A stretch of DNA of 64,000 bases from an archaeon. Lineage in GTDB: Archaea; Iainarchaeota; Iainarchaeia; Iainarchaeales; JAAZKV01. The stretch spans positions 537-64,536 of the forward strand of contig JBAYJX010000003.1 in NCBI GenBank assembly GCA_041664905.1, read 5' to 3'. Positions 3,023-24,695 of the stretch are shown here, piece by piece. A program made the position numbers and the translations under genes. The notes under the pieces are model-generated. The model did not search any database, was not told where the DNA came from, and saw nothing but the letters and a program-made list of their open reading frames with translations. Each line of letters starts with the position of its first letter. The first letter of the stretch is position 1.

Positions 3023-4213
3023 TTACTTTTTCTTTTTTAGAACAAATTTCCAAACAATAATTCCTACAATTACTAAAACAACAAGTATTAGTGTCATGTT
3101 TGGTCCTTCTGTTGTAGTTGTATCTGCTTTAATTGGGAGTTGTATTGTTTTTGTTTTTATTACAGCATCCGAATCTTGGTATTCTATAACAACATCTATT
3201 GTGTAGTCTGTGCCTGTGCTAAAAGTTATTCCTGTTTTAACTGTGTCCACATCGTTTGGGCCAAGCGAGCCAATGAATTGTTTTGGTTTGTCTACTACTC
3301 CGTTTGGTGTTTTAATTTCAACTACTGTAAACTCAGCTTTTCCTAGTCCCTTGTTATATATTTCTATAGTAATTTCTGCTTTTTGTCCATTTGCAACAGT
3401 TCCTGTTTTGTCTTTTAGAGTTGCATCAATGTCAACTAGTGCAAATACTTTGAGTCCAACATAGGATGTATCAGTGGTTCTTGTTCCTGAAGCATTTCTG
3501 TATGAAACTGCTACTGGTAGAGTATAATTTTTTATTGTTGCTGTATTTGTAACGCTAACTTTGAGTGTTACTTGTTTTTGTTCTCCTGGGTTTATGCTTG
3601 AAACATAAGCTGTTGCTGCGCCTAAGGGAGTAATATCTCTTTCAACAACTGTTCCTGTTGCGGTTATTGTTCTGTCTTCTTTTATTTCAAGCACAACATC
3701 GTAGGCTGGGCTTGTTCCCACATTTTGTAATGTAAATGAAATTTCTTTTTCTTGTCCGGGTAATAGTTTTTCACTTGTTGTTGAAACAACTTTTATTGTT
3801 GGTTCTTTTCCACCTACAATAATTGGGAATTGTTCTTTTATGCCAGTAGTGTTTCCAGTTGTACTAATCGTTACTGGTAAATAGTATGTTTTGTTTTCTG
3901 CAGCAGGATCAACATAAACCGTGAATTGAACTAGCGCTTTTCCAAATGATTCTATGGTTCCTACTGTTGCTGGATTTAGTTGTGTATCAGTTGGTTTAAT
4001 TGTAAAGGGGTAAGTGTTTTCGAGTTGTACTTTAACTCCTGTTTGTGATGTAGAGTCTTTGTTTTCGAGTTGTACAAGTACGGTGATTGTTGTTCCTGGT
4101 ACTGCCGGGCTTGGGGTATAATTAACTTGAGTTATTTCTGGTAGGGTCGCAAAAGCCGTGCTTACAATCATCACAAATATAAATAATATAATTCCCATTT
4201 GTTTTATTTTCAT
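3023..4213 (-). CDS. surface/S-layer-like protein with repeated beta-sandwich (CARDB/COG1361-like) domains, N-terminal signal anchor and C-terminal TM
   Basis: N-terminal hydrophobic segment. Repeated Thr/Val-rich segments such as 'PGTTITVLVQLENKDS' and 'PGQEKEISFTLQNVGTSPAYDV'. C-terminal 'LILVVLVIVGIIVWKFVLKKKK'. Confidence 0.55.
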   Translation of the reverse strand: MKIKQMGIILFIFVMIVSTAFATLPEITQVNYTPSPAVPGTTITVLVQLENKDSTSQTGVKVQLENTYPFTIKPTDTQLNPATVGTIESFGKALVQFTVYVDPAAENKTYYLPVTISTTGNTTGIKEQFPIIVGGKEPTIKVVSTTSEKLLPGQEKEISFTLQNVGTSPAYDVVLEIKEDRTITATGTVVERDITPLGAATAYVSSINPGEQKQVTLKVSVTNTATIKNYTLPVAVSYRNASGTRTTDTSYVGLKVFALVDIDATLKDKTGTVANGQKAEITIEIYNKGLGKAEFTVVEIKTPNGVVDKPKQFIGSLGPNDVDTVKTGITFSTGTDYTIDVVIEYQDSDAVIKTKTIQLPIKADTTTTEGPNMTLILVVLVIVGIIVWKFVLKKKK

Positions 4214-4284
4214 TAGAACCACACCCTTGGAAGATTTTGGCAAGAAAGCATTTAAATAGCTTATTTTTCTTTGCTCTCGCCTTT

Positions 4285-8026: not shown

Positions 8027-8211
8027 TTTTTAACACCGATTTTGTGCTAGAACATAGGCCTTTTTTATATATAAACTTTCCCTCTAAAAGTTAACTTAAA
8101 CATAATTTTTGTTAAAATTGGGTTTATTTGAAAAATAAGTGGTTTAAAACACTAGTTTATGTATAAGTTTTTTGTTAAAAAAGGTGCTTTTTTCTCTTTT
8201 GTTGACAAAAA

Positions 8212-8478
8212 TGGACACGCTAAGCAATGGATTTCTAGTTTGTGCGAGCATTTCATCTTGCTAGCTCCACTCCGTTTCCCTTCAGCGTATTATACTAAAA
8301 TTACCGTTGCTGCATTCCTGCCCTGGCGGGGTTCGTTTTAGAGCAATACCTGTAAGGACAGAGCTTCGACGCCAGTAAAATGGTGCTTGCATAAACATCA
8401 AAACCTCTCACCTAGCTTCGACCCCAACATAAAGCGGATTTTTGGTTACAAGCCACCGCTAGCGGCCCGGTCTAGTCC
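8212..8478 (-). ncRNA. signal recognition particle RNA (archaeal 7S RNA)
   Basis: GC-rich island. The minus strand reads GGACTAGACCGGGCCGCTAGCGGTGGCTTGTAACC (Alu-domain UGUAAC) and CCGCCAGGGCAGGAATGCAGCAACGGTAA (helix-8 pattern). Ends GCGTGTCC followed by a T-run. Confidence 0.85.
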
Positions 8479-8505
8479 AATATATTTCTTATTCAAAAAG
8501 CTTAA

Positions 8506-12840: not shown

Positions 12841-14337
12841 TTAAAGTTCTTTTTCATATTGATCCGGTAATTGTGCACCAATTAAAGGATTTATTTGTTT
12901 TACTTCTTCGCATAGTTTGTGTACGTATTCTCTGTATGAGTAGTGTGCAGCTCTACTTGTTCGTGTTTTTGCAACATGGTGGAGTTCTTTTGCATTGAGT
13001 GTGTATAATACTTTGTAATTTGTTGCTAGTGGTAGTAGGTATTGTGCAATTTCTCGTGATACTCCTTGGTTAATTAGTTCAACCCAAACACTAAATGCTT
13101 TTTTTAGTGCATTAGTATATTCTTTTTTTGCTTCTTCATTCAAGTAATAAGGAATAGCATATCCATATTCAGGGCTTACTTCTGTATCTATCCAAGTAAG
13201 CATTCTGTTTCTATGCAAATCTCTTCCTGCCCCAAAATCAACCAGTGTTTCAAACCAGTAGTAAGCGTTTTCTGCGGCTCTGTGTGGTTTTTTTTCGATT
13301 GTATTGTAGGAAAATATTTTTTTAACAAGTTCTTTTTTTTGTTCGGGGGTAATTTCTTTTCCCCTTAAAAAAACTTTTCCTTTAACATAACTTGTGTCAA
13401 ATCCTTCTTTTGTTAGGTATTCGTAGCAAATAAGTTCTTCGGCATTCTGGGTTGTATTTATTGTTTTTATTGTTGGTTGTATATTCTCAAAAGTATGTTC
13501 TTCAATACTTATTTTTTCATTACTTTGATTTTGTTTTATTGGATTTATTGTAATCTCTTTATTTGTGTGTTCAATTCTAGTTTCATCCGCCACACAGTAT
13601 TCTTTTGCAAGTAGTGATGGATATTCTTTTGTTAGTGCTTCTTGCATTCGGTCTGCAATTTCATTAAGTTCATTATTTTTTATTGATTTTAAATCATGTA
13701 TTAGTGCTCGGAATTGTTGTGAGTTTGTACTTATTGCAAAATTAGTCATTGTGCTTGCAGGTAAAAGGTATCTTGCACCATCAAATGCTTTTTTCTTAAT
13801 GGTTTTTTCATCAGCAGTTATTCCTCGTGCTTTGTAGTTCTCAGTTATGTTGGTTATGAGTAAAGGTAAGACTTTTGAGTAAGTAGAAAAAAGGTAATCA
13901 ACTGCTTGAACATATTTTTCTTTTTGTTTTTCGTTTAGTTCAGCAGGAATATAGTAACTTGGGTTTGAAAAATCTTGGTATCTTGTGCTTCTTTCAAGGT
14001 AAGCAGATAATCTTTTGTTTTCAAAGTATTTGTTTGCTGCAAGTATGCTCACATTTTCAAGCCCAATGCTTGTGTGTGCGTGTTGTTCTATTGAGTGGTG
14101 CCCCCAAGCAATTGTTACTCTTTTGTGAAAATCAGTTACTTTTTGTGTATCTAGTCCTTTTTCATTTAAAATTTCTTTTATTATTTCAGAGAAGGGTTTT
14201 GCACTTTGGCTTAGTCGTCCGATAACCATGCTGTGGGTTTCTCCTTTTGCTTCTCCAGTTATTTTTACATTAAGTTCGTTAGCAATATCTTCAACCAAAT
14301 CATCAATCAGCATTACTTTGGCTTTTGCATTTTCCAT
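12841..14337 (-). CDS. thyX: flavin-dependent thymidylate synthase ThyX, tandem double-domain form
   Basis: First half: 'GHHSIEQHAHTS' and 'NKRLSAYLERSTRY' (a variant of the RHRxxSxxxxSxRY motif). Second half: 'FGAGRDLHRNRM' and 'ELHHVAKTRTSRAAHYSYRE'. At 498 aa it is about twice the usual length. Confidence 0.7.
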   Translation of the reverse strand: MENAKAKVMLIDDLVEDIANELNVKITGEAKGETHSMVIGRLSQSAKPFSEIIKEILNEKGLDTQKVTDFHKRVTIAWGHHSIEQHAHTSIGLENVSILAANKYFENKRLSAYLERSTRYQDFSNPSYYIPAELNEKQKEKYVQAVDYLFSTYSKVLPLLITNITENYKARGITADEKTIKKKAFDGARYLLPASTMTNFAISTNSQQFRALIHDLKSIKNNELNEIADRMQEALTKEYPSLLAKEYCVADETRIEHTNKEITINPIKQNQSNEKISIEEHTFENIQPTIKTINTTQNAEELICYEYLTKEGFDTSYVKGKVFLRGKEITPEQKKELVKKIFSYNTIEKKPHRAAENAYYWFETLVDFGAGRDLHRNRMLTWIDTEVSPEYGYAIPYYLNEEAKKEYTNALKKAFSVWVELINQGVSREIAQYLLPLATNYKVLYTLNAKELHHVAKTRTSRAAHYSYREYVHKLCEEVKQINPLIGAQLPDQYEKEL

Positions 14338-14523
14338 ATAAATTCTTCTTCAAGCTTCTTTTTTTAAACAAATCCTTTTTTTTGCCATTCTTCATATTGG
14401 TTTGTTTGAGATTTATCTAATTGTACAAATAATTCAAAATCAGCAGAGTGTGTTAATGGGTATGAAGCAAATAAACGCTAAGGTTCACTAATATTATTAT
14501 ACTTCTTTAACAGAAATAATTAT

Positions 14524-15492
14524 ATGTTGGTTTTAAAGGGGCCTAAGGCTAGTGCAAAAATTACTGCAAATACGCGTGCTCTTCGTAGAGTTTTTAGAAG
14601 AGTTGGGCTTGAAGAAAGTAGTTTGCCTGCTGTAGCCAAATACTCAAATGCTCCTTTAATCATTTCTCGTTTGCGCGCAATGAAAGCCGCAAAAGTTCCT
14701 CTTACTGGGATTGTTTATAAAGTTACTATGCCTGAAGAAAAATTTCGTGCTCTCTTAGAACGTTTTTCTTTTAAGTATTCTTTTACTTCTGGCCAAAGAA
14801 AATTGTTTGATGTTATGATTTCTAAAGGATTTTCTGAATCTCTTGCTGTTGAATTGTGTTCACCAAGGATGGCCTTGCAAAGCATGTACCTAGAGAAAAT
14901 AGATTTTTTTGAGTCCTTTAAGTTAGATCCAAAAGTTTATGGTGTTGAAAGAATTCCTCCTTCTGCTTATTCGCCTTTATTGAAGTTGCATTTAAGATAT
15001 TTAAAGGCGCGTGCATTAAGGCCAATGTTGACTAAACTTGCTGATGAGCATGCATCAAAAGTTTTGGACGAAAAATTTCCTGGTTGGCGTGAACTTCGTT
15101 CTCTTCAAAGAAAAAAAGGACATCCTGGCGGACGAATACATCCTTCTTCTATATTAAAGAAAGTTCGGGCATTTCTTGCAGCAGATATTGAGCCTACACT
15201 GTATTTATTAGAATATTCGCTTTCTCGTGCGAAAGAAATAAGGCGCGGCCAAGGGATTACTGGTAACTCTGCTCTTCTTAGAAATACGCCTCTGGGGAGA
15301 GGATTTGAAACTAGACTTGAAAAACAAATACGTCGACTAAATAAACAAATTCAAGTGCTTGAAAAAAAGTTTGTTAGTCGTTGGGGCAAGCCTGAAGTTA
15401 TAGAGGCCCATTCTGTCAAGATGAAAGCACTTCGTGAAGAACTTAAAGGGCTTATTATGCAAAAAAGGGAAATTGAGTTACAATCTAAGTAG
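14524..15492 (+). CDS. hypothetical basic protein with C-terminal coiled coil
   Basis: Long ORF with no recognised motif. The C-terminus shows a heptad pattern ('LEKQIRRLNKQIQVLEKKF'). Confidence 0.4.
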   Translation: MLVLKGPKASAKITANTRALRRVFRRVGLEESSLPAVAKYSNAPLIISRLRAMKAAKVPLTGIVYKVTMPEEKFRALLERFSFKYSFTSGQRKLFDVMISKGFSESLAVELCSPRMALQSMYLEKIDFFESFKLDPKVYGVERIPPSAYSPLLKLHLRYLKARALRPMLTKLADEHASKVLDEKFPGWRELRSLQRKKGHPGGRIHPSSILKKVRAFLAADIEPTLYLLEYSLSRAKEIRRGQGITGNSALLRNTPLGRGFETRLEKQIRRLNKQIQVLEKKFVSRWGKPEVIEAHSVKMKALREELKGLIMQKREIELQSK

Positions 15493-15588
15493 TTACTTAA
15501 CTAAGTAATTTTTTTATTTATTTTTTAGTTTTTTAAAACCACAGTTCATTTTATAATTCCTTTACTATTATTTATTTTGGGTTGGAAT

Positions 15589-16827
15589 ATGTTTGATGCA
15601 ATAAAAAAATTTGATCCAGAAATTTATCAGTATATAATGCAAGAGAAAGAGCGTCAAATGGAGGGGATTGAATTAATTCCTTCTGAAAATTTAGTTTCAA
15701 TGGCAGTGTTAGAGGCGTTAGGTTCTTACCCTACAAATAAATATTCTGAAGGTTATCCTGGCCACAGATATTATGGTGGTAATGAAATTATTGATAAAAT
15801 TGAACAATTAGCGATTGATCGTTTAAAGCAATTGTTTGGTGCCGAGCATGCTAATGTTCAACCAAACTCTGGTTCTCCAGCAAATATGGCAATGTATTCG
15901 GCGCTAATGAATGTTGGTGATAAAGCAATGGGGCTTAAGTTAACTGAGGGCGGTCACTTAACTCATGGACATAAAGTAAATTTTTCTGGTAAATTATATA
16001 ATTTTGTTCAGTATGGTGTTTCTAAGGAAAATGAAATGCTTGATTATGATGAAATTAGAAAAAAAGTTTTGGAAGAGAAACCAAAGTTAGTTCTTTCAGG
16101 GTACACCGCGTATCCGCGTTCAATTAATTTTAAAGAATTTAGAAGTATTTGTGATGAGGCCGGTTGTTATTGTGTTGCAGATATTTCTCACATCGGAGGG
16201 TTGTGCGCAGCAGGGGTGCATGAGAATCCTACTCCTTATTTTGATATGGTTACAACTACGACTCACAAAACTCTTCGTGGTCCAAGAAGTGCTGTAATAA
16301 TGTGTAAGAAAGAGTTTGCAGAGAAAGTTGATAAAGCAGTTTTTCCTGGTCTTCAGGGTGGGCCGCACGAACACGTGATTGCAGCTAAAGCAGTTGCATT
16401 CAAAGAGGCGCTCCAGCCAAAGTTTAAGGATTATGCTTCTCAAATAGTAAAGAATGCAAAAAAGTTAGCAGAATCTCTTCAATCGCATGGTTATAGATTA
16501 GTAACAAATGGCACTGATAATCATTTGATTTTAGTTGACGTAAGAAAATCCGGTATTAGTGGAATTGATGCTGAGAGGGCTTTAGAGAAAGCGGGTATTT
16601 ATTGTAACAAGAACACAATTCCTTTTGAAACTGGTTCTCCATGGGACCCTAGTGGAATTAGAATTGGTACTCCTGTGTTAACAACAAGGGGAATGAAAGA
16701 AAGTGATATGGTTGAAGTAGCTAATTTTATGCATTCAGCTCTTCAAAATAGAACAGATGATGCTAAACTTGCTCAAATTAAGTTGAATGTCAAGGATTTT
16801 TGTAAAAATTTTATTTTTTATCCTTAA
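15589..16827 (+). CDS. glyA: serine hydroxymethyltransferase
   Basis: 'ELIPSENLVS', 'YPGHRYYGG', and the PLP-lysine region 'TTTTHKTLRGPR'. Confidence 0.92.
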   Translation: MFDAIKKFDPEIYQYIMQEKERQMEGIELIPSENLVSMAVLEALGSYPTNKYSEGYPGHRYYGGNEIIDKIEQLAIDRLKQLFGAEHANVQPNSGSPANMAMYSALMNVGDKAMGLKLTEGGHLTHGHKVNFSGKLYNFVQYGVSKENEMLDYDEIRKKVLEEKPKLVLSGYTAYPRSINFKEFRSICDEAGCYCVADISHIGGLCAAGVHENPTPYFDMVTTTTHKTLRGPRSAVIMCKKEFAEKVDKAVFPGLQGGPHEHVIAAKAVAFKEALQPKFKDYASQIVKNAKKLAESLQSHGYRLVTNGTDNHLILVDVRKSGISGIDAERALEKAGIYCNKNTIPFETGSPWDPSGIRIGTPVLTTRGMKESDMVEVANFMHSALQNRTDDAKLAQIKLNVKDFCKNFIFYP

Positions 16828-17207
16828 TTTAATTTTTTAGGACTTTTTGTTAAAATTAAGTTTTCTAACTTTTTTAATTTAATTTTTTTTATTTTTTGTT
16901 GGTTTGTTGTTGTTTTTTATAAAAATTTTTTATTTAAAAAATATTTTTTTATAAAATTTCTTTGTATTTTTTATTTAACAATTTTATTTGGGCACAAATA
17001 TTAACTTTTTTAGTCTATTTTGTTTGCTTTTCATACTGCTTTTACCTTTTGTTGGACATTTTTTTGTTTTTACTAATGCGCTTTGGCTTTGTAGAGTTGT
17101 TTTTCCAAAGTAGTTTGTTTTGAGCAGTAAGCTTTTTATAGTAGGATTTCTTCTTATTCTCGGTTGGTTTTTTTAAATTTAATTAAGTTTAATTAAATAA
17201 AAAAATA

Positions 17208-20195
17208 GTGATAAAAAGATTAGGGGTGTTGCCTTTGCCTAAGTTTGTGATAAAGAGAGATGGTTCTAAAGCGCTTTTTGATAGTTCTAAAGTAGCTACT
17301 GCTATTTGGAAAGCAGTTCAAGCTGTTGGTGGTGTTGATAGGAAGCGTTCTGATGTTATTGCTGAGGAAGTTGTTGTAAGAATTAATGAAAAATATGGTT
17401 CTGACGGAGTTCCTTCTGTTGAAGAGATTCAGGATTTAGTTGAAACTACTTTAATTAAAGGTGGGCACGATAAAACAGCTAAAGCATATATTTTGTATCG
17501 TCACCAAAGAGAACTTTTGAGAAGAACAGAGGACATGGTAAATAATTTTGATATAGTTAATCAATATATTTCTCAAGAAGATTGGCGTGTTAGAGAAAAT
17601 TCTAACATGGCTTATTCTTTGCAAGGAATGAACTTTAATATTGCCGGTAGAGTTGTTTCTAATTATTGGCTTGGTAGAGTTTATCCTAAAGAAGTTGCTG
17701 AGGCACATAAAACTGCAGCACTTCACATTCACGATCTTGATTGTTTAGCTGCATATTGTGTTGGTTGGGACTTAAAGCAGTTATTGCTTGAAGGTTTTAC
17801 TGGTGTGAGAGGCAAAGTTTCATCAAAGCCTGCAAAGCACTTGCGTTCAGCGTTTGGGCAAATAGTTAATTTCTTTTATACTCTTCAAGGTGAAGCAGCA
17901 GGAGCTCAAGCTTTTTCAAACTTTGATACTTACTTAGCTCCTTTTATTAGATATGATAATTTGGATAGAAAACAAGTGAAGCAAGCAATTCAAGAATTTA
18001 TTTTTAATACTGCAGTTCCAACAAGAGTGGGTTTTCAATGTATGTCTGAAGATACAGAAATTTTGACGCCTCTTGGTTGGTTTGGATATTCTGATTTAAA
18101 GGAAGGGGACTTAATTAAAACATTTAATATTGAAAGTGGGGTAATTGAAGATAAACCAATTAAACGATTGTTTGCCCGAGAATATAATGGAAAAATGTTT
18201 AGGTTAAGAAACAGAATTTCTGATCAATTGATTTCTCCAAAACACCGGGTTGTAAGAAAAGCATTTGGTTCAAACAAATATATTCTTGAAGAAATTGAAT
18301 CCGTTAAATCACTTAAATCACCGTTTATAGTTCCAATTGCAGGGCTTAATAATTCAAAAGGTAGTATTTTGTCTAGTGAAGAAATCCGACTTCTTGCTTG
18401 GGTTATTGCCGAGGGTTCTAGCGAAAACCCCAAACACAAATATCGGCAGTGTGGTAGAATAACTCTTTACCAGTCAGAGAAATCAAACAAGAGTAAGTAT
18501 GAGGAAATTCTTTCTTTGTTGAAGGGATTCGCTCTGAAGTTTTCGATTAAAGATTCTATTCCTGCTTTTGGTTTTTCAACTAAGATGATTAGACTTAATG
18601 CCGCTTCTTCTCGTGAAGTTCACAATTATTTCCAAGATAAGTACGACATAAAGCACATCCCTCAAGAGTTATTCCAAATGAATCAAAATCAATCTCGTTT
18701 GTTTTTGGAAACCTATCTTAAAGCTGATGGGCATGAGGATTGTAAGATTTCTACAACAGATAAAAAGATTTTGGATGGTTTACAGCACATTTGCGTTTTA
18801 GCCGGGTATGGTTGTACGGTTTCAAAGCGTAAAGCAACTATTGGAAAAAAAGATATTTTTGTTTTAAGGTTAGTGAAGCATAATGAAACATATATTCAAA
18901 GAATTGAAGAAATTGATTATTCTGGAACAATTTGGTGTCCAAACACTGATAATGAAACAGTAATTGCTCGTCGCGCAGGTAAAGTGTTTATTACTGGTAA
19001 CACTCCTTTTACAAATATTACAATGGATTTGAATGTTCCTTCTCATATTGCTCATGATCCAGTAATTATTGGCGGTAAGGCAATGGAATTAACTTATGCG
19101 GATTTTCAAGAAGAAATGGATTTGTTTAATGATGTTTTTTGTGAGGTAATGACTGAGGGGGATGCGAGTGGTAGAATTTTTACTTTCCCAATTCCAACTT
19201 ATAATATTACTTCTAACTTTGATTGGGATTCTCCAAAGTATGATGGTATTTGGGAGATGACTGCTAAATATGGTATCCCTTATTTTGCAAATTATGTTAA
19301 CTCTGATATGAGTCCTGAAGATGCAAGGAGTATGTGTTGTAGGCTTCGCTTGGATAATAGAGTATTAAATAAAAGAGGAGGCGGATTATTCGGGGCAAAT
19401 CCTCTTACAGGGAGTATTGGGGTTGTTACAATTAATATGCCTCGATTAGGCTTTACTTCAAAATCAGAAAGTGAGTTTTTTGCTCAATTAGGTAGATTAA
19501 TGGATTTAGCAAAAGAATCTCTTGTAATAAAACGTAAAACAATTGAGCGTTTAGCTGATCAAGGATTGTATCCTTATGCAAAATATTATTTGCGCGGAAT
19601 AAAAGAACAAACTGGCGGTTATTGGACTAATCACTTTTCAACTATTGGTTTACTTGGGATGAATGAAGCTTTGCTTAATTTTATGAACAAGAACATTACT
19701 ACTAAAGAGGGTCAGGAGTTTACAATTAAGGTTCTTGATTTTATGCGTGATCGTTTGTTAGCTTATCAAGATGAAACAGGGGATTTGTTTAACTTGGAAG
19801 CTACTCCTGGTGAAGGTACTTCAAGAAGATTTGCTTGGGCAGACAAGAAACAGTTCCCAACAATTATTGTAGCAAATGAGAAACAGTTTAAGGAGCACGG
19901 AGTAGCCCCATATTACACTAACTCTACTCAACTCCCAGTTAGTCTTTCTCTTGATTTGTTTAGTGCGTTAGATTTGCAAGATCCTTTGCAAACAAGGTAT
20001 ACTGGTGGAACAGTGTTCCATGTTTTCCTTGGGGAAAAATTGCCTTCAAAGGAAGCTACAAAGAATTTAGTTAGAAAGATTTCTGCAAATTATCATTTGC
20101 CTTATTTTTCTCTTACTCCAACTTTTAGTGTGTGCCCAATTCATGGTTACATTGCTGGGGAGCATGAGTATTGTCCAGTTTGTGAGAAGGAGTAA
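17208..20195 (+). CDS. nrdD: anaerobic ribonucleoside-triphosphate reductase large polypeptide (ATP-cone + core + Zn site), intein-containing, lacking the glycyl-radical loop
   Basis: ATP-cone 'VIKRDGSKALFD'. Core motifs 'PTRVGFQ|intein|TPFTNITMD' and 'CCRLRLD'. Ends 'CPIHGYIAGEHEYCPVCEKE*'. GTG start. Confidence 0.85.
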   Translation: MIKRLGVLPLPKFVIKRDGSKALFDSSKVATAIWKAVQAVGGVDRKRSDVIAEEVVVRINEKYGSDGVPSVEEIQDLVETTLIKGGHDKTAKAYILYRHQRELLRRTEDMVNNFDIVNQYISQEDWRVRENSNMAYSLQGMNFNIAGRVVSNYWLGRVYPKEVAEAHKTAALHIHDLDCLAAYCVGWDLKQLLLEGFTGVRGKVSSKPAKHLRSAFGQIVNFFYTLQGEAAGAQAFSNFDTYLAPFIRYDNLDRKQVKQAIQEFIFNTAVPTRVGFQCMSEDTEILTPLGWFGYSDLKEGDLIKTFNIESGVIEDKPIKRLFAREYNGKMFRLRNRISDQLISPKHRVVRKAFGSNKYILEEIESVKSLKSPFIVPIAGLNNSKGSILSSEEIRLLAWVIAEGSSENPKHKYRQCGRITLYQSEKSNKSKYEEILSLLKGFALKFSIKDSIPAFGFSTKMIRLNAASSREVHNYFQDKYDIKHIPQELFQMNQNQSRLFLETYLKADGHEDCKISTTDKKILDGLQHICVLAGYGCTVSKRKATIGKKDIFVLRLVKHNETYIQRIEEIDYSGTIWCPNTDNETVIARRAGKVFITGNTPFTNITMDLNVPSHIAHDPVIIGGKAMELTYADFQEEMDLFNDVFCEVMTEGDASGRIFTFPIPTYNITSNFDWDSPKYDGIWEMTAKYGIPYFANYVNSDMSPEDARSMCCRLRLDNRVLNKRGGGLFGANPLTGSIGVVTINMPRLGFTSKSESEFFAQLGRLMDLAKESLVIKRKTIERLADQGLYPYAKYYLRGIKEQTGGYWTNHFSTIGLLGMNEALLNFMNKNITTKEGQEFTIKVLDFMRDRLLAYQDETGDLFNLEATPGEGTSRRFAWADKKQFPTIIVANEKQFKEHGVAPYYTNSTQLPVSLSLDLFSALDLQDPLQTRYTGGTVFHVFLGEKLPSKEATKNLVRKISANYHLPYFSLTPTFSVCPIHGYIAGEHEYCPVCEKE
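18039..19001 (+). mobile_element. intein (321 aa) with LAGLIDADG homing-endonuclease domain inside nrdD
   Basis: Starts 'CMSEDTEILTP' and ends 'VFITGN' before the +1 Thr. LAGLIDADG-like 'LLAWVIAEGS' and 'FLETYLKADGHE'. The flanks rejoin as GFQ-TPFTN. Confidence 0.85.
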
Positions 20196-20226
20196 AGAAA
20201 GTTTAGTTATTGTTTGTTGATTTTTT

Positions 20227-20234
20227 GGAGGTGA
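20227..20234 (+). promoter_or_regulatory. Shine-Dalgarno (GGAGGTGA) for the glycyl-radical mini-ORF
   Basis: GGAGGTGA lies 5 nt upstream of the ATG at 20240. Confidence 0.6.
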
Positions 20235-20239
20235 AGTGG

Positions 20240-20380
20240 ATGGTTAAAACAAAGTGCGAGGTTTATTCAAGAGTTGTTGGTTATATTAGACCAGTTAGTA
20301 ATTGGAACGACTCAAAACAAGCAGAGTTTGCTGATAGAAAAAAGTATGATTCAGCTGTAAATGAATGCGGTTGCCAATAG
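20240..20380 (+). CDS. stand-alone NrdD glycyl-radical domain (46 aa)
   Basis: Translates to 'MVKTKCEVYSRVVGYIRPVSNWNDSKQAEFADRKKYDSAVNECGCQ'. It contains the RxxGY radical-glycine loop normally found at the NrdD C-terminus. Not in the ORF track because it is under 60 aa. Confidence 0.7.
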   Translation: MVKTKCEVYSRVVGYIRPVSNWNDSKQAEFADRKKYDSAVNECGCQ

Positions 20381-20456
20381 TTTTTGTTAAGTATTATTGT
20401 AAGTATTGGTTAAACGCATTCTTTTATTTTTTTTATTTTTATTTCTTTTTTGGTGT

Positions 20457-21164
20457 ATGGGTGTTAGTGTGTTTATTGGGGCATTACAAAAAACTACTCT
20501 TACTGATTTTCCCGGTAAAGTTGCGTGTATTGTTTTTTTAGTGAATTGTAACTTTAAGTGCAAGTTTTGTTATAATAAAGAACTTACCGCGTACAAGTTT
20601 TTTAAAAAATCTAAGCGTGAGTTAATTCAGTCAAAAGATTTTTTTGATTTTTTAGAAGCAAAGAAAAAGATGCTTGACGGGGTAGTAATTACGGGCGGGG
20701 AACCCACGCTTTCTCCTGGTTTGTATGATTTTATAAAAAAAATTAAATCTATAGGGTTAGCAGTAAAGCTTGATTCTAATGGTACTCGTCCTTCCGTGTT
20801 AAGAAAGTTAATTGCTGATAAGTTAGTTGATTATATTGCAATGGATATTAAAGCTCCTCTTTCAAAGTACAAAGAAATTACTCAATCAAGTATTCCTGGC
20901 GAAGTAATTTTAGAATCAATTGATTTGATTCGTAATTCGGGGGTTCCTCACGAGTTTAGAACCACGCTTTACCCAAAGTTAACAAAAGAAGATTTAATTG
21001 AAATGTCTCATTTTATTCCAAAAGAAAAGTGGTTTTGGCAGAGTTTTGAGCCAAAGCAAGCACTAGATTTGCCTTCAAGAAAACTTAAGCCAATGAAGCC
21101 TAGTGAAGTAAAATTAATTCTTGCTGAGGTTAGGCCTGAAGTTGATGTAGTGTTTAGGGAATAA
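20457..21164 (+). CDS. nrdG: anaerobic RNR activating radical-SAM protein
   Basis: 'CNFKCKFC' (CxxxCxxC) and 'GVVITGGEPTL'. Lies immediately downstream of nrdD. ATG at 20457 preferred over the upstream TTG. Confidence 0.8.
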   Translation: MGVSVFIGALQKTTLTDFPGKVACIVFLVNCNFKCKFCYNKELTAYKFFKKSKRELIQSKDFFDFLEAKKKMLDGVVITGGEPTLSPGLYDFIKKIKSIGLAVKLDSNGTRPSVLRKLIADKLVDYIAMDIKAPLSKYKEITQSSIPGEVILESIDLIRNSGVPHEFRTTLYPKLTKEDLIEMSHFIPKEKWFWQSFEPKQALDLPSRKLKPMKPSEVKLILAEVRPEVDVVFRE

Positions 21165-21582
21165 CTTTTTGAATTACAAACCAGTTTGTACTTTTTTGGT
21201 ATTCTTTTATTTCATCAAGAAAGTATGAGTTAATTATTTTTTCTGCTTCCTTAAGTGTAAGCCACTTATACTCGGTGTGTTCTTTGCTTAAAGTAACAAT
21301 ATCATTTTTTGTTGTGCAAACAAATGAGGTCATTTCTATTTTTTGTCCATCAACTCTAGTAAACTTTCTTTTGCATAATGGTCTTAATATTTCTATTTCA
21401 AGATTTGTTTCTTCTTTTACTTCTCGTTTTAGTCCATCTTCTAATTTTTCTCCTACTTCAATTCTTCCTCCTGGTAGTTCCCAAGAAGAGGGGTGTTCAA
21501 CATCATCATCAGCTCTTTTCACAAGAAGTAATTTTTTGTTTTTTACAATGAAAGCTTTTGCTGCAGGGCTACGAGTAGTCAT
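21154..21582 (-). CDS. Nudix hydrolase
   Basis: Nudix box 'GGRIEVGEKLEDGLKREVKEETNL'. Confidence 0.85.
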   Translation of the reverse strand: MTTRSPAAKAFIVKNKKLLLVKRADDDVEHPSSWELPGGRIEVGEKLEDGLKREVKEETNLEIEILRPLCKRKFTRVDGQKIEMTSFVCTTKNDIVTLSKEHTEYKWLTLKEAEKIINSYFLDEIKEYQKSTNWFVIQKVIP

Positions 21583-21661
21583 AATTATCTTTTATGTTGT
21601 TTAAAATAATTTTCTAACACACCTCTTTAAATTATTTTGCTGTCAATATATTTTTGATTTT

Positions 21662-22228
21662 ATGTTTCTTGGGATAGTTGGGTTAAATGGTTCGGGCAAA
21701 GACACTGTTGCGCAGTATTTAGTTCAAAAACATAATTTTGTGCATGAGGATTTTGGTCAAGAGATTCGTGATGAACTTAAGACTCTTGGAAAAAATTATC
21801 TTGACCGAATTGAAATGATTAATCTTGCAAATGAGCGAAGGGCAAAGTTTGGGCATAATTATTGGGCAATTCGTTTGTTGACAAAGCACCCCGAAGGAAA
21901 AAATCTTGTTTTAACTTCTATTCGCAACCCTGCCGAGATTGATGAGATAAAATCTCGTGGAGGCATTGTTGTTGAAGTGTTTGCTGATATTAAAACTCGG
22001 TATGCTCGGACAGTAGATCGTGTAAAAAATGATTCTACCGCGCATGGTGATGTTGTGAGTTTTGAAGATTTTAAACGAAAAGAAGAAATGGAACTTTCAA
22101 GTACTGACCCAGCTAAACAACAGTTGCTAAAATGTATTGCTGCTGCGCAATATAAACTTAATAATGAGGGTTCCCAAAAGCAACTTGAAGCTCAACTTGA
22201 AGAGTTGTTTAGAAAATTGAAAGGATAA
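21662..22228 (+). CDS. P-loop nucleotide kinase-like protein (dephospho-CoA-kinase/UPF0200-like)
   Basis: 'IVGLNGSGKDTVAQYL', 'LTSIRNPAEIDEIK' and 'RYARTVDR'. Substrate unknown. Confidence 0.5.
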   Translation: MFLGIVGLNGSGKDTVAQYLVQKHNFVHEDFGQEIRDELKTLGKNYLDRIEMINLANERRAKFGHNYWAIRLLTKHPEGKNLVLTSIRNPAEIDEIKSRGGIVVEVFADIKTRYARTVDRVKNDSTAHGDVVSFEDFKRKEEMELSSTDPAKQQLLKCIAAAQYKLNNEGSQKQLEAQLEELFRKLKG

Positions 22229-22245
22229 TACACGAAATTAATCAG

Positions 22246-22749
22246 CTATTTTTGGTTTGCATATTCTGCGATATTTTGATCAAGTGTTACTAGTTCTATT
22301 CCTGCGTCCTTAAACATTTGTTCAGTTTCTGCTCCTGCGTGGTATCTTTTTTCTGCAACTACTCTTTTTATTCCACAGTTAACTATTAGCATTGCACATC
22401 TTAAGCACGGTGTCATTTGTAAATAAAGCGTTCCTCCTTCAAGGGGAATTCCAAGTTTTGCTGCTTGGCAAATCGCATTTTGTTCTGAGTGTATTGTTCT
22501 TTCACAATGCAATGATTTGTGTCCATCTTCATGTATAGTTTCTTTTAGTAAGTGCCCTACTTCATCACAATGTGGTAGTCCTTTTGGCGCTCCATTATAT
22601 CCTGTTACAAGTATTTGTTTGTCTTTGGTAACTACGCAACCTAGTCGAATTCGATCGCAAGTTCCTCTTCCCCCAACCATTTTTGCTATTCCTAAAAAGT
22701 ATTCATCCCACGAGGGTCGTTTGTAAGCTTCTTTTTTTTCAGTTTCCAT
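22246..22749 (-). CDS. dCMP deaminase
   Basis: Zn motifs 'HSEQNAI' and 'PCLRCAMLI'. Confidence 0.85.
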   Translation of the reverse strand: METEKKEAYKRPSWDEYFLGIAKMVGGRGTCDRIRLGCVVTKDKQILVTGYNGAPKGLPHCDEVGHLLKETIHEDGHKSLHCERTIHSEQNAICQAAKLGIPLEGGTLYLQMTPCLRCAMLIVNCGIKRVVAEKRYHAGAETEQMFKDAGIELVTLDQNIAEYANQK

Positions 22750-22790
22750 AACTATCCTCTGTTTTGTATATTTTTTTAAATCCTTCTTTT

Positions 22791-24047
22791 TTAGAGTATT
22801 TCTCTTACCCCAAATTCATTGTTTCCTGAGAATGAATTTGTTTTTTGGTATCCATATAGTTTGATTTCTTTTCCAATTAGTTTTCCATTGAGTTCAGCTG
22901 TAAGCACTTCGGTGCTTTTTCCATTTAGTGCACTCTCTAGTTCTTCTTGCAGCATTCCAATTGCTGTTAAAGCATTTTTTCCAAAGAAATTTGCTCGTAT
23001 TCCAGCAGTATCATCTTCTAGTGTAATTGATACAACTGCATTTTTCTTGCTCTCTGTTTCTCCGCAGTTTTCGCATAGTAATCCGTTTGGTGTGTGTTGC
23101 ACTTTTTTGCCGCATTTTTTGCAGACTTCAAAGAAATAGTTTCCTTTTTCAATTCCCGTTATTTTTCCAGTAATTGCCGCGCTTTCTCCATCAGTTAATT
23201 GGTTAATTTTTTTCTCAACTATTCTTTCTTTTAGTATTTCAGCAGCATTGGGCATATTTATTGTGCTTTCGCTCATTGTGGCAGTGTACCCTAAGTGTAG
23301 TTCTACTCCAAACCTTCCGTCTTTAGTATAAGCATTTTTGATTTCAACAACATCTCCTTCGTTGTATTTTTCTAGTTCATCAGCTTTATCATTCCAAGCA
23401 GTTGCTCGTAAGAGTGCAGTTTCGTCTCCGATTTGAAATGAGCATAATTTTCCTTTTCTATCATTTGATTCAAATTCTTTGCAAGGAAATTTTCGTAATA
23501 TTCTTCCAACAAGATTTACTCCATTAGCTCCAGCTTTAAGTTCAGCCATTTTTTCAAAAGTTTCTTCTTTTTTGTTTAGTATTTGTATTGTTCCATTGAA
23601 TCCTAAAGTAACTTGTGTTTTGTCATTGTATTTTGAGACAATTACATTGGATAATATTATTTCGCTTCCTTTTGTTAAGTCATATTTATCCACTTGGTCG
23701 TTCCATAGTGTAGCTCGTACTTCGCCAGTTCCATCAGAGAGTATTATTGATTTTAGTTTTCCTTTTTTGCCATTTTTATCAAATTCTTTTAATGGAAAAA
23801 CTGCTTCAACCAGTCCTTTAATTTCAATTCCTTTCATTCCTTCAGTGAGTTGTCCTACTTGTACTTGTTCGAGTGCTTCTTGTTTTAATCCTAGTTCTTT
23901 TTGAACCATAAATGAAGCCCCTTGTTCAGTTAGTAATCCCGAAAATTTTTCCACTTTTGCTTTAATTAGTGCTCGCACTTCTTCTTCGCTTTTACCAGTT
24001 TTTTGTGCAATTTCAGAAATTATTTCTTCAGGAGTTTTTTCAGTCAT
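22791..24047 (-). CDS. rpa: replication protein A-like ssDNA-binding protein (multiple OB folds + Zn ribbon)
   Basis: N-terminus 'LLTEQGASFMVQKELGL'. Repeated OB-like units. 'CKKCGKKV..CENCGE'. Confidence 0.75.
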   Translation of the reverse strand: MTEKTPEEIISEIAQKTGKSEEEVRALIKAKVEKFSGLLTEQGASFMVQKELGLKQEALEQVQVGQLTEGMKGIEIKGLVEAVFPLKEFDKNGKKGKLKSIILSDGTGEVRATLWNDQVDKYDLTKGSEIILSNVIVSKYNDKTQVTLGFNGTIQILNKKEETFEKMAELKAGANGVNLVGRILRKFPCKEFESNDRKGKLCSFQIGDETALLRATAWNDKADELEKYNEGDVVEIKNAYTKDGRFGVELHLGYTATMSESTINMPNAAEILKERIVEKKINQLTDGESAAITGKITGIEKGNYFFEVCKKCGKKVQHTPNGLLCENCGETESKKNAVVSITLEDDTAGIRANFFGKNALTAIGMLQEELESALNGKSTEVLTAELNGKLIGKEIKLYGYQKTNSFSGNNEFGVREIL

Positions 24048-24131
24048 TGTGTTTCACTAAAATAGTTTTGATTATTCTTATTGATACTTTATTTGCATTC
24101 CTTTTATAATCTTTCGAGTCCTTCCTGCCGG

Positions 24132-24695
24132 CTATTCTTTTGGAATAATATTTTTTTCATTTAGTTCTTTGATAAGTTCATTAAAGAATTTTAATAAGAT
24201 TGGGAATTCCAAAAAATATGCTTCTTTGTATTTTCTAAGTTTCTCTTCAGTGTATCCGTGTTCTTTCCATTCAGTTGGTTGGTGGATTGATTGTAAAATA
24301 GGATCAAGTGCATCTATTGCATGAGCAAATTTTGCTTCAAGAGTTCTGTTTTCCAAGTATTCTTTCCAGATTTTTTTAAATTCAGTTACAATTTCTTTTG
24401 GAAGTTCTTTTTCAAGTTGTTTAAGTGCTTTCTCTTCAAGTTCTTCTTTTTTTGTCCGTTCCTCTATTTTTAGTATATCAATATCCCCTGCATGTATTTC
24501 CACATAGTCATGATAAAGTAAGAGTTTGATTACTTTAATTTCACTTAGTTTTGGGTGTTTTTTTAAGAAATATTCAGCAATGGTAATAGCAGAGAACGTG
24601 TGTTCCGCAGTAGTTTCGTTTCGTTCCTCAACTTTTCCTGATCTTTTAATTTCTTTTAGTTTGTAGGGGGTGTGCAGCTTCTCAAGTAGTGTCAT
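24132..24695 (-). CDS. HD-domain phosphohydrolase, YfbR-like 5'-deoxynucleotidase
   Basis: 'ETTAEHTFS' and 'LLYHDYVEIHAGDI'. Confidence 0.7.
   Translation of the reverse strand: MTLLEKLHTPYKLKEIKRSGKVEERNETTAEHTFSAITIAEYFLKKHPKLSEIKVIKLLLYHDYVEIHAGDIDILKIEERTKKEELEEKALKQLEKELPKEIVTEFKKIWKEYLENRTLEAKFAHAIDALDPILQSIHQPTEWKEHGYTEEKLRKYKEAYFLEFPILLKFFNELIKELNEKNIIPKE

What the first reader, a model, noticed from the sequence alone, without database searches (positions are those of the whole stretch)
20130..20380. Split anaerobic RNR: the glycyl-radical loop is a separate 46-aa gene with its own ribosome-binding site
The 995-aa nrdD ORF ends (TAA at 20193..20195) right after the Zn-site-like 'CPIHGY...YCPVCEKE'. 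It never reaches the radical-glycine loop. 44 nt later, in another frame, an ORF reads 'MVKTKCEVYSRVVGYIRPVSNWNDSKQAEFADRKKY...'. That is the RxxGY glycyl-radical motif and the following WN..K..EF..R segment, which normally form the NrdD C-terminus. GGAGGTGA lies 5 nt upstream of its ATG. One indel cannot fuse the two ORFs: the small ORF's frame has a TAG at 20204..20206, downstream of the large ORF's TAA. This argues against a simple sequencing frameshift. A detachable radical domain would parallel GrcA/YfiD, the stand-alone spare radical domain for pyruvate formate-lyase. I do not know of such a split being described for class III RNR.
Basis: partly seen in the sequence, partly recalled or inferred. 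Interest (0 to 1): 0.72.

Follow-up and report, generated by a model that had tools for sequence, protein, structure and literature searches.

The report
Two-gene anaerobic ribonucleotide reductase
In this archaeon the oxygen-sensitive enzyme that makes DNA building blocks has its radical-carrying loop encoded as a separate 46-residue protein, an arrangement conserved in well over a hundred lineages of ultra-small archaea and bacteria that I could not find described in the literature I searched.

Summary
The large nrdD ORF (17208..20195) covers the Pfam NRDD model up to position 529 of 562. The 46-aa ORF (20240..20380) covers 531–562, including the radical glycine. It is not an error or a pseudogene. 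The order large nrdD (no loop), small ORF, nrdG recurs in DPANN archaea, Patescibacteria and Thermotogae. A Bacillota locus has the order nrdD, nrdG, small ORF. Gaps run from a 29-nt overlap to about 180 nt, all three relative frames and all three stop codons occur, and each small ORF has its own start codon. Both genes are under strong purifying selection. In the spacer only the Shine-Dalgarno is conserved. An exhaustive search found 128 distinct short, Met-initiated clusters among the best 150 representatives. All homologs of the large subunit above about 70% identity are truncated in the same way. The break lies between the Zn-ribbon and the glycine loop and replaces one or two linker residues. 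The best explanation is an obligate two-subunit class III RNR. No paper or curated family found here describes it. The GrcA parallel is functional only. True "spare" copies next to complete nrdD genes also turned up.

The parts
17208..20195 (+). nrdD large subunit gene (995 aa including an intein, about 674 aa after splicing). It has the ATP-cone, the catalytic barrel and the Zn-ribbon, but no glycyl-radical loop. The true start may lie a few codons downstream of the GTG.
   Evidence: Pfam NRDD E 8e-171 with the best stretch ending at profile position 529/562, ATP-cone E 3e-23. NF006126 1009 bits against a cutoff of 548. pN 0.08-0.11 against pS 0.53-0.58 versus L015.
17244..17513 (+). ATP-cone (allosteric activity site), aa 13-102
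   Evidence: PF03477, 82.6 bits
18039..19001 (+). Intein with a LAGLIDADG-like endonuclease domain (aa 278-598, Cys1 ... Asn | Thr+1), inserted between VGFQ and TPFTN
   Evidence: Absent from the 86-88% identical L015 protein, which reads VGFQ|TPFTN without a gap. Weak intein_Nterm and LAGLIDADG_3 hits.
19335..19340 (+). Cys710-Cys711 of the SMCCRL motif, equivalent to SCCR in T. maritima NrdD and MGCR in T4 NrdD (finger-loop / thiyl-radical cysteine region)
   Evidence: Sequence. Motif equivalence from PMC4493059.
20133..20183 (+). Zn-ribbon ligand motif C-P-I-H-x9-C-P-V-C (aa 976-992), entirely on the large subunit
   Evidence: Sequence. Aligns to the CxxxHx6CxxC Zn site of T. maritima NrdD.
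20193..20195 (+). TAA stop of the large subunit, 3 residues after the last Zn ligand
   Evidence: 42 of the 120 closest homologs stop 3-36 residues after the same CxxC.
20196..20239 (+). 44-nt intercistronic spacer with no significant RNA structure and no Rfam match
   Evidence: Fold z-score -0.79. No Rfam hit. The spacer has diverged from L015 except around the SD.
20227..20234 (+). Shine-Dalgarno GGAGGTGA, 5 nt before the ATG. It holds the only GGAGGTG in the 64-kb window.
   Evidence: GGAGGTG occurs once in the window. SD-core 5-mers precede ORF starts in 29% of cases against 10% for control k-mers. The TTGGAGGTGAA block is conserved in L015.
20240..20380 (+). Small subunit gene (46 aa): glycyl-radical loop and C-terminal tail of NrdD
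   Evidence: Pfam NRDD positions 531-562, E 1.4e-10. 14 synonymous against 1 nonsynonymous difference versus L015. Hundreds of stand-alone homologs.
20270..20284 (+). RVVGY radical motif. Gly14 (20279-20281) is the predicted radical site.
   Evidence: Invariant in alignment A1. Aligns to the RIVGY motif of T. maritima NrdD, whose radical glycine is Gly621.
20366..20377 (+). C-terminal CGCQ tail
   Evidence: A tail Cys occurs in 68/117 small subunits against 3/78 fused homologs. Low model confidence here.
20381..20456 (+). AT-rich spacer with long T-runs between the small gene and nrdG. It could be an archaeal oligo-T terminator and/or a promoter, but this was not tested.
   Evidence: Sequence. 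A similar T-rich tract is present in L015.
20457..21164 (+). nrdG, the radical-SAM activase (235 aa from the ATG; the longest ORF starts at TTG 20406)
   Evidence: TIGR02495 NrdG2, 188 bits against a cutoff of 131. Gene call of 235 aa in L001/L002.

Best explanation
This is a functional class III (anaerobic) ribonucleotide reductase whose catalytic chain is encoded by two cistrons. The large subunit (about 674 aa after intein splicing) carries the ATP-cone, the ten-stranded barrel with the finger-loop cysteines, and the complete Zn-ribbon. The 46-aa small subunit is translated independently from its own strong Shine-Dalgarno and ATG. It carries the RVVGY glycine loop and the C-terminal tail. 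I infer that the small subunit docks non-covalently so that its loop enters the barrel as in single-chain NrdD, that NrdG (encoded just downstream) puts the radical on Gly14, and that catalysis then proceeds as usual. The fission happened in the short linker between the Zn-ribbon and the loop, where one or two codons were replaced by stop + spacer + SD + ATG. What is shown: two separate, conserved, selected genes that together make one complete NrdD. What is inferred: assembly, activation in trans, and any benefit. A plausible benefit is that after oxygen cleaves the chain at the glycyl radical, only a 46-residue peptide has to be remade. A free loop may also be an easier substrate for the activase.
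For: The two ORFs tile the family profiles exactly: Pfam up to 529 + 531-562 of 562, NF006126 up to 649 + 648-683 of 684. The fused homolog P0147 reads CPKCEAEGIKTKCEVYSR where the window reads CPVCEKE* + MVKTKCEVYSR. The large, small, nrdG order recurs in archaeal contigs (L006, L012, L015, L037, L046, L047, L051, L059) and bacterial contigs (L003, L008-L011, L022, L073, L077, L091). Gaps run from -29 to about +180 nt, all three relative frames occur, and stops are TAA, TAG or TGA. L086 has an ATGA overlap, and the spacers of L008 and L077 contain repeat hairpins. In Bacillota locus L076 the small gene lies after nrdG. The Thermotogae loci have AAGGAGG plus a TTG start inside the end of the large ORF. 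Purifying selection: in the small ORF core, 14 of 18 synonymous sites differ but only 1 of 75 nonsynonymous sites versus L015, and omega is about 0.1 against more distant relatives. For the large subunit, pN is 0.08-0.11 against pS 0.53-0.58. Only the SD block is conserved in the spacer, and this genome uses such SDs. Abundance: 427 clusters at 90% identity matched, and the best 120 listed are all 41-79 aa. 128 of the best 150 representatives at 50% identity are short, start with Met and have no Zn motif. Every large-subunit homolog above about 70% identity lacks the last 46 residues. The break maps between the Zn-ribbon and the Gly loop of T. maritima NrdD. The radical domain is known to be mobile (PMC11226230). 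A model of the joined chain is confident (pLDDT 85, with residues 675-710 at 85-93) and matches solved NrdD structures at TM 0.70/0.77.
Against: There is no direct evidence of expression, assembly or activity. All data are genomic, mostly from metagenome-assembled genomes. The structure model joins the two chains covalently and rests on an alignment that includes fused homologs, so it is not independent evidence of docking. Only 64 kb of this genome is visible, so a second complete nrdD or another RNR class elsewhere cannot be excluded. The proposed selective advantage is speculative, and close fused relatives exist in the same phyla (L057, L089, L049, L078), so the split is not obligatory for that lifestyle.
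Confidence: 0.85

Rival explanations
1. Sequencing or assembly error, or a decaying pseudogene: the real gene is one continuous nrdD.
For: MAG-derived sequence. One related assembly (L002) does carry a 1-nt indel that breaks the large ORF further.
Against: Two changes would be needed to fuse the ORFs. The same 3957-nt nrdD-to-nrdG stretch is identical in an independent Logan assembly. The split is conserved in dozens of distant genomes with different spacers. Both parts are under strong purifying selection. The L002 indel lies elsewhere in the gene, and L002 still has the 46-aa gene as a separate ORF.
Confidence: 0.02
2. Translational recoding (programmed frameshift, stop readthrough, or ribosomal bypass as in T4 gene 60) produces a single fused NrdD from the two ORFs.
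For: The gap is short (44 nt), similar in size to the 50-nt bypassed gap of T4 gene 60 (from my own knowledge of that system).
Against: Across homologous loci the relative frame is 0, +1 or +2, the gap runs from -29 to about +180 nt, all three stop codons are used, and an in-frame TAG lies in the small frame upstream of the ATG. The spacer has no significant structure. In L076 the activase gene lies between the two parts. Each small ORF has its own start codon (ATG in most, TTG or GTG in the Thermotogae and Bacillota loci), and several have a clear SD.
Confidence: 0.03
3. RNA or protein splicing joins the halves (an archaeal bulge-helix-bulge mRNA intron, a group I/II intron, or a split intein).
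For: The host is an archaeon with an intron-containing tRNA. The same gene already hosts an intein. T4 nrdD is known to carry a group I intron (from my own knowledge).
Against: No Rfam intron family and no stable structure in the spacer. The large subunit ends 3 residues after the Zn site and the small one starts MVKTKC, leaving no room for split-intein halves. Gaps as short as 4 nt, overlapping genes, and the permuted order in L076 are incompatible with cis-splicing.
Confidence: 0.01
4. The small protein is a GrcA-like spare part for a different, complete NrdD encoded elsewhere in the genome, and the adjacent truncated large ORF is inactive or has another role.
For: Stand-alone NrdD-type radical domains do coexist with complete nrdD genes: L092 has a complete nrdD, then an 88-aa Zn-ribbon + loop protein, then nrdG. 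Desulfobacterales encode unlinked proteins of about 118 aa. Only 64 kb of this genome can be inspected.
Against: The adjacent large subunit is under purifying selection with all catalytic motifs intact. There is no second nrdD in the window. The tight large-small linkage is conserved. The true spares carry their own Zn-ribbon, which the window's small protein lacks.
Confidence: 0.04

Closest known systems
Canonical single-chain class III RNR (NrdD with activase NrdG; T4, E. coli, T. maritima, P. copri, S. thermophilus)
   Same: Same family by profile. Same domain order: ATP-cone, barrel, Zn-ribbon, Gly loop, tail. An adjacent NrdG. The predicted fold matches solved NrdD structures.
   Different: The Gly loop and tail are a separate 46-aa polypeptide with its own ribosome-binding site. 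All solved and characterised NrdDs carry them on the same chain.
GrcA/YfiD (and T4 Y06I), the autonomous glycyl radical cofactor of pyruvate formate-lyase
   Same: A small stand-alone protein carrying an RVxGY-type radical glycine, presumably activated by the cognate radical-SAM activase and functioning by insertion into a large subunit.
   Different: It is not homologous at family level: only PF13597 is hit, not PF01228. GrcA replaces the whole radical domain of an oxygen-cleaved PFL that has its own loop. Here the partner has no loop at all, so the small protein is constitutive rather than spare, and it lacks the Zn-ribbon part of the domain. A 2026 review states that formate lyases are the only GRE class with known spare-part proteins (PMC13450708).
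Split class II RNR NrdJa/NrdJb (Pseudomonas aeruginosa and other gamma-proteobacteria)
   Same: An RNR catalytic chain encoded by two adjacent genes, with the C-terminal functional module on the second chain (PMC4520616, PMC9669993, PMC3267527).
   Different: A different class (B12-dependent). NrdJb is a large folded protein with IscU-like and Zn-finger domains and carries no radical site.
Genes-in-pieces class I RNR of phage Aeh1 (alpha-a + alpha-b)
   Same: A split catalytic subunit that reassembles into an active enzyme (PMC3267527).
   Different: Class I. To my knowledge that split was created by insertion of a homing-endonuclease gene. Here the spacer is 44 nt with no ORF, and the break separates the radical site from the barrel.
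Class I RNR alpha/beta architecture (NrdA/NrdB)
   Same: The stable radical resides on a polypeptide different from the one holding the active site.
   Different: NrdB is an unrelated ferritin-like metalloprotein that transfers the radical over a long distance. Here the radical loop is a fragment of the catalytic chain itself and presumably sits next to the active-site cysteine.

Membership tests
Class III RNR catalytic subunit NrdD (PF13597 / TIGR02487 / NF006126) | Match to the whole family profile above the curated cutoff | tested here: met
   The large ORF alone scores 569.9 bits on PF13597 and 1008.7 bits on NF006126 (cutoff 548). Large + small tile the profiles end to end.
Class III RNR catalytic subunit NrdD (PF13597 / TIGR02487 / NF006126) | C-terminal radical glycine in an RVxGY motif | tested here: met
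   RVVGY is at small-ORF residues 11-15, invariant in alignment A1, and aligns to the RIVGY motif of T. maritima NrdD, whose radical glycine is Gly621. Radical formation itself cannot be tested here.
Class III RNR catalytic subunit NrdD (PF13597 / TIGR02487 / NF006126) | Zn-ribbon between the last barrel strand and the Gly loop | tested here: met
   CPIH-x9-CPVC at large-ORF aa 976-992 aligns to the CxxxHx6CxxC Zn site of T. maritima NrdD. Metal binding was not tested.
Class III RNR catalytic subunit NrdD (PF13597 / TIGR02487 / NF006126) | Finger-loop cysteine motif (MGCR/SCCR) | tested here: met
   SMCCRL at aa 708-713. Motif from PMC4493059. The third Cys suggests an NrdD2/NrdD3-like subtype, but the diagnostic Glu was not examined.
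Class III RNR catalytic subunit NrdD (PF13597 / TIGR02487 / NF006126) | Dedicated radical-SAM activase NrdG encoded nearby | tested here: met
   TIGR02495 NrdG2, 188.3 bits against a cutoff of 131 for the ORF ending at 21164.
Class III RNR catalytic subunit NrdD (PF13597 / TIGR02487 / NF006126) | Barrel and glycyl-radical loop on one polypeptide (true of all characterised members) | tested here: not met
   Stop at 20193-20195, a 44-nt spacer, and a new start at 20240. Conserved as two genes in relatives.
GrcA/YfiD autonomous glycyl radical cofactor (Pfam PF01228 Gly_radical) | Sequence membership in the PFL-type Gly_radical family | tested here: not met
   At E <= 0.1 the small ORF hits only PF13597 NRDD. 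NCBIfam hits are only NrdD models.
GrcA/YfiD autonomous glycyl radical cofactor (Pfam PF01228 Gly_radical) | Coexists with a parent enzyme that has its own radical loop (the spare-part relationship) | tested here: inconclusive
   The adjacent large subunit has no loop, and there is no second nrdD in the 64 kb. The rest of the genome is not available.
GrcA/YfiD autonomous glycyl radical cofactor (Pfam PF01228 Gly_radical) | Restores activity to the oxygen-cleaved parent enzyme | not testable with these tools
   Needs biochemistry.
Split RNRs (class II NrdJa/NrdJb; phage Aeh1 NrdA-a/b) | Catalytic chain encoded by two adjacent cistrons | tested here: met
Split RNRs (class II NrdJa/NrdJb; phage Aeh1 NrdA-a/b) | Homology to class II or class I RNR, or a mobile endonuclease gene at the break | tested here: not met
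   The family is class III. The spacer is 44 nt with no ORF.
Programmed recoding site (frameshift / bypass / readthrough) | Fixed frame relation and conserved recoding signals across homologs | tested here: not met
   Frames, gap lengths and stop codons all vary. In L076 nrdG lies between the two parts. The spacer is not structured.
Intein (the 321-aa insert in the large subunit) | In-frame insert with N-terminal Cys, C-terminal Asn followed by Thr/Ser/Cys, absent from close orthologs | tested here: met
   C278 ... N598 | T599. The insert is precisely absent in L015. Weak intein_Nterm and LAGLIDADG hits. The residue before the terminal Asn is Gly rather than the usual His.

The most novel reading that the evidence does not exclude
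The 46-residue protein is a freely exchangeable radical-carrying subunit. NrdG activates it off the enzyme. It then docks into the large subunit, and it is swapped for a fresh copy after oxygen cleavage or radical loss. That would make this class III RNR functionally an alpha/beta enzyme like class I. The Cys-rich C-terminal tail (CGCQ here), enriched in split forms, may in addition shuttle reducing equivalents to the active site, as the C-terminal cysteine pairs of class I and II RNRs do. Together with the true spare copies found next to complete nrdD genes, this would mean that spare-part radical proteins are not restricted to formate lyases.
Probability: 0.3. Interest if true: 0.85.

Novelty: new variant of a known kind. 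Interest (0 to 1): 0.74.

Why it matters
All characterised glycyl radical enzymes carry the radical glycine on the catalytic chain. How the buried loop leaves the barrel to reach the activase is a long-standing open question. A natural enzyme whose loop is a separate 46-residue peptide gives a direct experimental handle on three things:
- whether the activase acts on the free peptide;
- whether the radical-bearing peptide docks afterwards;
- whether it can be exchanged after oxygen damage.

It also extends the "spare-part" idea beyond pyruvate formate-lyase. It shows that large-scale RNR surveys that discard short sequences have missed a subunit. And it affects annotation: in DPANN and Patescibacteria genomes, a truncated nrdD followed by a tiny ORF should be read as a complete enzyme, not a pseudogene.

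Tried and rejected
- **Related-loci search with the single 46-aa sequence.** I repeated it with alignment A1.
- **Single-sequence AlphaFold of the joined chain.** Useless, pLDDT 33. The alignment-based model is confident, but it is not independent evidence of docking because fused homologs inform it and the chains are joined. No coordinates are returned, so I could not measure whether Cys6 of the small subunit lies near the Zn site.
- **Sigma-70 promoter and terminator scan.** At background level, and not appropriate for an archaeon, so ignored.
- **GGAGGTG count.** Not enriched over shuffles in the window (1 found against 2.2 expected). The argument therefore rests on its position, on genome-wide SD usage, and on its conservation in L015.
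- **NJ tree.** Only a rough guide. L047 and L057 sit on a long branch, probably because an intein falls in the region used, and L069 had no recognisable Zn motif. I do not claim a number of fission events.
- **Thermotogae loci.** I first suspected frameshifted fused genes. Inspection showed an SD plus a TTG start.
- **Tn7 attachment at nrdD.** Considered as a cause of the split and rejected, because those elements insert outside the gene.
- **Literature searches.** No description of a split class III RNR was found. The library lacks most subscription-journal papers.


Full report
**1. The observation**

Every coordinate in the finding is correct.
- The 995-aa ORF 17208..20195 ends ...SVCPIHGYIAGEHEYCPVCEKE with TAA at 20193-20195.
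- A 44-nt spacer follows.
- GGAGGTGA lies at 20227-20234, 5 nt before the ATG at 20240.
- The 46-aa ORF MVKTKCEVYSRVVGYIRPVSNWNDSKQAEFADRKKYDSAVNECGCQ ends at 20380.
- The small frame has a TAG at 20204-20206, downstream of the TAA, so one indel cannot fuse the ORFs.

Profile searches show the two ORFs tile the NrdD family exactly. For Pfam NRDD, the large ORF reaches position 529 of 562 (E 8e-171) and the small ORF covers 531-562 (E 1.4e-10). For NCBIfam NF006126, the large ORF reaches 649 and the small ORF covers 648-683 of 684. The next gene is an NrdG2-type activase (188 bits against a cutoff of 131).

The unusual length of the large ORF comes from a 321-residue intein (aa 278-598). It is absent from an 86-88% identical relative that reads straight through VGFQ|TPFTN.

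**2. Not an artefact**

The same 3957-nt nrdD-to-nrdG stretch is identical in an independent assembly, L001. A second assembly, L002, differs by one mismatch and one 1-nt indel elsewhere in the large gene and still has the separate 46-aa gene.

The closest distinct relative, L015, is an archaeal MAG.
- Its large ORF also stops just after the Zn motif (…CPICDQEKS*).
- It has a spacer of similar length with a different sequence.
- Its small ORF differs from the window at 14 of 18 synonymous sites but at only 1 of 75 nonsynonymous sites in the 31-codon core.
- The large subunit shows pN 0.08-0.11 against pS 0.53-0.58.
- In the spacer only TTGGAGGTGAA is conserved.

The genome does use AGGTGA-type Shine-Dalgarno sites. 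29% of core 5-mers precede an ORF start, against 10% for control k-mers. The site before the small ORF holds the only GGAGGTG in the 64 kb.

**3. How widespread it is**
- A word-indexed search with the 46-aa protein returned 427 clusters at 90% identity. The best 120 are all 41-79 aa.
- An exhaustive HMM search of 1.84 billion representatives gave 149 short proteins among the best 150. Of the 150, 128 start with Met and have no Zn motif upstream, 11 differ only in the called start codon, 7 carry their own CxxC, and 1 is a full-length NrdD.
- Searching in the other direction with the C-terminal extein plus the small ORF, every homolog above about 70% identity covers only about 90% of the query and ends 3-36 residues after the CxxC (EKE, EQE, DQEKS, EKED…). 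Fused proteins appear only at 68% identity or below.

**4. Genomic contexts**

The order large nrdD (no loop), small ORF, nrdG occurs in three kinds of genome:
- clearly archaeal contigs: L012 has Pcc1, prefoldin and L37ae; L006 has PcrB and RPA; others are labelled Woesearchaeota, Aenigmatarchaeota and Micrarchaeota;
- clearly bacterial contigs: L008-L011 have FtsA, FtsZ, NrdR and RF-1; others are Patescibacteria and Saccharibacteria MAGs;
- Thermotogae: an AAGGAGG and a TTG start lie inside the end of the large ORF.

In a Bacillota MAG (L076) the order is nrdD-large, nrdG, small ORF. Across these loci the gap runs from a 29-nt overlap to about 180 nt. The relative frame is 0, +1 or +2. The stop of the large gene is TAA, TAG or TGA. 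L086 has an ATGA overlap. Two Patescibacteria spacers contain repeat hairpins.

This pattern fits ordinary separate cistrons. It does not fit frameshifting, readthrough, bypass or cis-splicing. The window's spacer has no significant structure (z = -0.79) and no Rfam match.

**5. Where the chain is cut**

[quoted passage not shown] The window's CxxHx9CxxC motif is wholly on the large subunit. The small subunit starts five residues before the conserved CEVYSRVVGY.

The fused homolog P0147 reads CPKCEAEGIKTKCEVYSR, and the window reads CPVCEKE* + MVKTKCEVYSR. The fission therefore replaced one or two linker residues and lost nothing else.

Cryo-EM work on P. copri NrdD defines the radical domain as Zn site + buried Gly loop + surface tail, and shows that it is mobile and can be fully disordered (PMC11226230). 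So the cut lies inside the radical domain, at a point compatible with independent movement of the loop.

A model of the spliced large chain joined to the small chain, built with an alignment of fused, split-large and small sequences, is confident: pLDDT 85.2 and pTM 0.79, with the small part at 85-93 apart from the last ten residues. It matches solved NrdDs (8P2S_B, TM 0.70/0.77). This shows compatibility with the canonical fold. It is not independent proof of docking.

**6. Mechanism**

*Shown:* two selected genes that together encode one complete NrdD, with an activase gene beside them.

*Inferred:*
- the small subunit inserts its loop into the barrel non-covalently;
- NrdG generates the radical on Gly14;
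- catalysis is otherwise canonical, probably of a thiol-dependent NrdD2/3-like subtype given the SMCCRL motif.

A plausible advantage is cheap repair. Oxygen cleaves glycyl radical enzymes at the radical glycine, and here only a 46-residue peptide would need replacing, instead of a chain of about 674 residues that also requires intein splicing. A free loop may also be a more accessible activase substrate. These benefits are speculative. Fused forms persist in the same phyla (L057, L089, L049, L078).

**7. Evolution**

A rough NJ tree of the last 280 residues before the Zn site places the split forms in at least two main groups. One is DPANN-archaeal and contains the window. The other is Patescibacterial. 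Fused relatives are interspersed, and there are separate Thermotogae and Micrarchaeota cases.

Junction styles also differ. The window's clade has CE(K/Q)E* + MVKTKC. Patescibacteria and some DPANN have CDEEIGY… followed by a longer tail, with a longer N-terminus on the small protein. This suggests several fissions and/or transfer between co-occurring DPANN and Patescibacteria, but I do not claim a count.

**8. Comparison with known systems**

Known split RNRs are the class II NrdJa/NrdJb and the class I phage Aeh1 alpha-a/alpha-b. Neither separates a radical site from the barrel.

GrcA/YfiD is the closest functional analogue, but the small protein is not a member of that family, and here it is constitutive rather than spare.

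A June 2026 review states that formate lyases are the only GRE class with known spare-part proteins (PMC13450708). None of my eight full-text searches, and none of the RNR evolution papers I checked, describes a split class III RNR. One large RNR phylogeny removed all sequences under 400 residues (PMC9531940), which would hide the small subunit. NCBIfam has no model specific to these proteins. Sources sometimes name them simply "anaerobic ribonucleoside-triphosphate reductase".

**9. Verdict**

This is a new variant of a known enzyme: widespread in public data but, as far as I can tell, undescribed. It is of real interest to the RNR and glycyl-radical field.

The main limits are:
- no expression or biochemical data;
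- only 64 kb of the genome is visible;
- the literature library is incomplete.

Noticed in passing
L092:2354-2620 (Bdellovibrionales MAG); also L033:3755-4111, L025, L028, L030, L040, L064, L071, L075 (Desulfobacterales / delta-proteobacteria) and L063 (Parcubacteria): A third class of stand-alone NrdD-type radical proteins of about 88-130 aa that carry their own CxxC...CxxC Zn-ribbon plus the CEVYSRVVGY loop. In L092 the gene sits between a complete nrdD (Pfam NRDD 1-562 of 562, with its own loop) and nrdG. In the delta-proteobacterial loci no nrdD-like ORF lies upstream of it, and in L033 the flanking genes are unrelated. These look like true GrcA-style spare parts for class III RNR, which a 2026 review says are unknown outside formate lyases.
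   Followed up: partly
window 18039-19001: A 321-aa intein with a LAGLIDADG-like domain interrupts nrdD between VGFQ and TPFTN. It is absent from the 86-88% identical L015 ortholog, so it is a recent or mobile insertion. The residue before the terminal Asn is Gly, not the usual His.
   Followed up: partly
window 20366-20377 and small-subunit homologs P0001-P0120: The C-terminal tails of the split small subunits are enriched in cysteines. 68 of 117 have a Cys and 31 of 117 have a CxC, CxxC or CC motif (CGCQ in the window), against 3 of 78 fused homologs. This could be a redox shuttle or a metal site. The function is unknown.
   Followed up: partly
L076:1-1750 (Bacillota MAG): Permuted gene order: nrdD-large (ending ...CPKCEAEEKAKNNE*), then nrdG, then a 46-aa small subunit with a GTG start and an AGGAGG Shine-Dalgarno.
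   Followed up: yes
L083 and L085, about 3900-4130 (Thermotogae-type MAGs): The small subunit starts at a TTG preceded by AAGGAGG, inside the last ~29 nt of the large ORF. A fused Thermotogae relative (L060) exists, suggesting an independent fission.
   Followed up: partly
L008:4875-5000 and L077:3895-3964 (Patescibacteria): The large-small spacers contain copies of a hairpin repeat (GTCATTCCCGCG(A/T)AGGCGGGAATC-like), apparently a REP-like element that has colonised the intercistronic gap.
   Followed up: no
window 41079-41219 (- strand): An Rfam tRNA match spans 141 nt and was not called by ARAGORN. It is probably an intron-containing archaeal tRNA. An archaeal SRP RNA lies at 8209-8482 (-).
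   Followed up: no
window about 12841-24695: nrdD sits in a cluster of DNA-precursor and replication genes: an unusually long (498 aa) ThyX-family ORF, SHMT, nrdD/small/nrdG, NUDIX, a dNMP-kinase-like AAA protein, dCMP deaminase, an RPA-like OB-fold protein and an HD phosphohydrolase. Much of this order is shared with L006.
   Followed up: no
L002:2970-5956: This otherwise near-identical assembly has one 1-nt indel and one mismatch that break the large ORF into 850 + 150 aa. This is probably an assembly error or a strain variant, and it is unrelated to the conserved split.
   Followed up: yes
P0241 (66 aa, metagenomic): A small-subunit homolog with a tandem duplication of the radical loop (…CEVYSRVVGYLSPVSHWNEGKKEEW EVYSRVVGYLSPVSHWNEGKKEEW…). 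It may be an assembly artefact or a genuine two-loop variant.
   Followed up: no
window 20381-20456; L015 about 4150-4245: Long T-runs between the small gene and nrdG, present in both relatives. They may act as an archaeal oligo-T terminator and/or an nrdG promoter, which would make nrdD + small one transcription unit separate from nrdG.
   Followed up: no
model m85033053fad6, residues about 381-411 (window large ORF aa about 702-732): The only internal low-confidence stretch of the model is the SMCCRLRLDNR...GGGLFG region. This mirrors the disordered SCCR loop reported for the T. maritima NrdD crystal structure.
   Followed up: no
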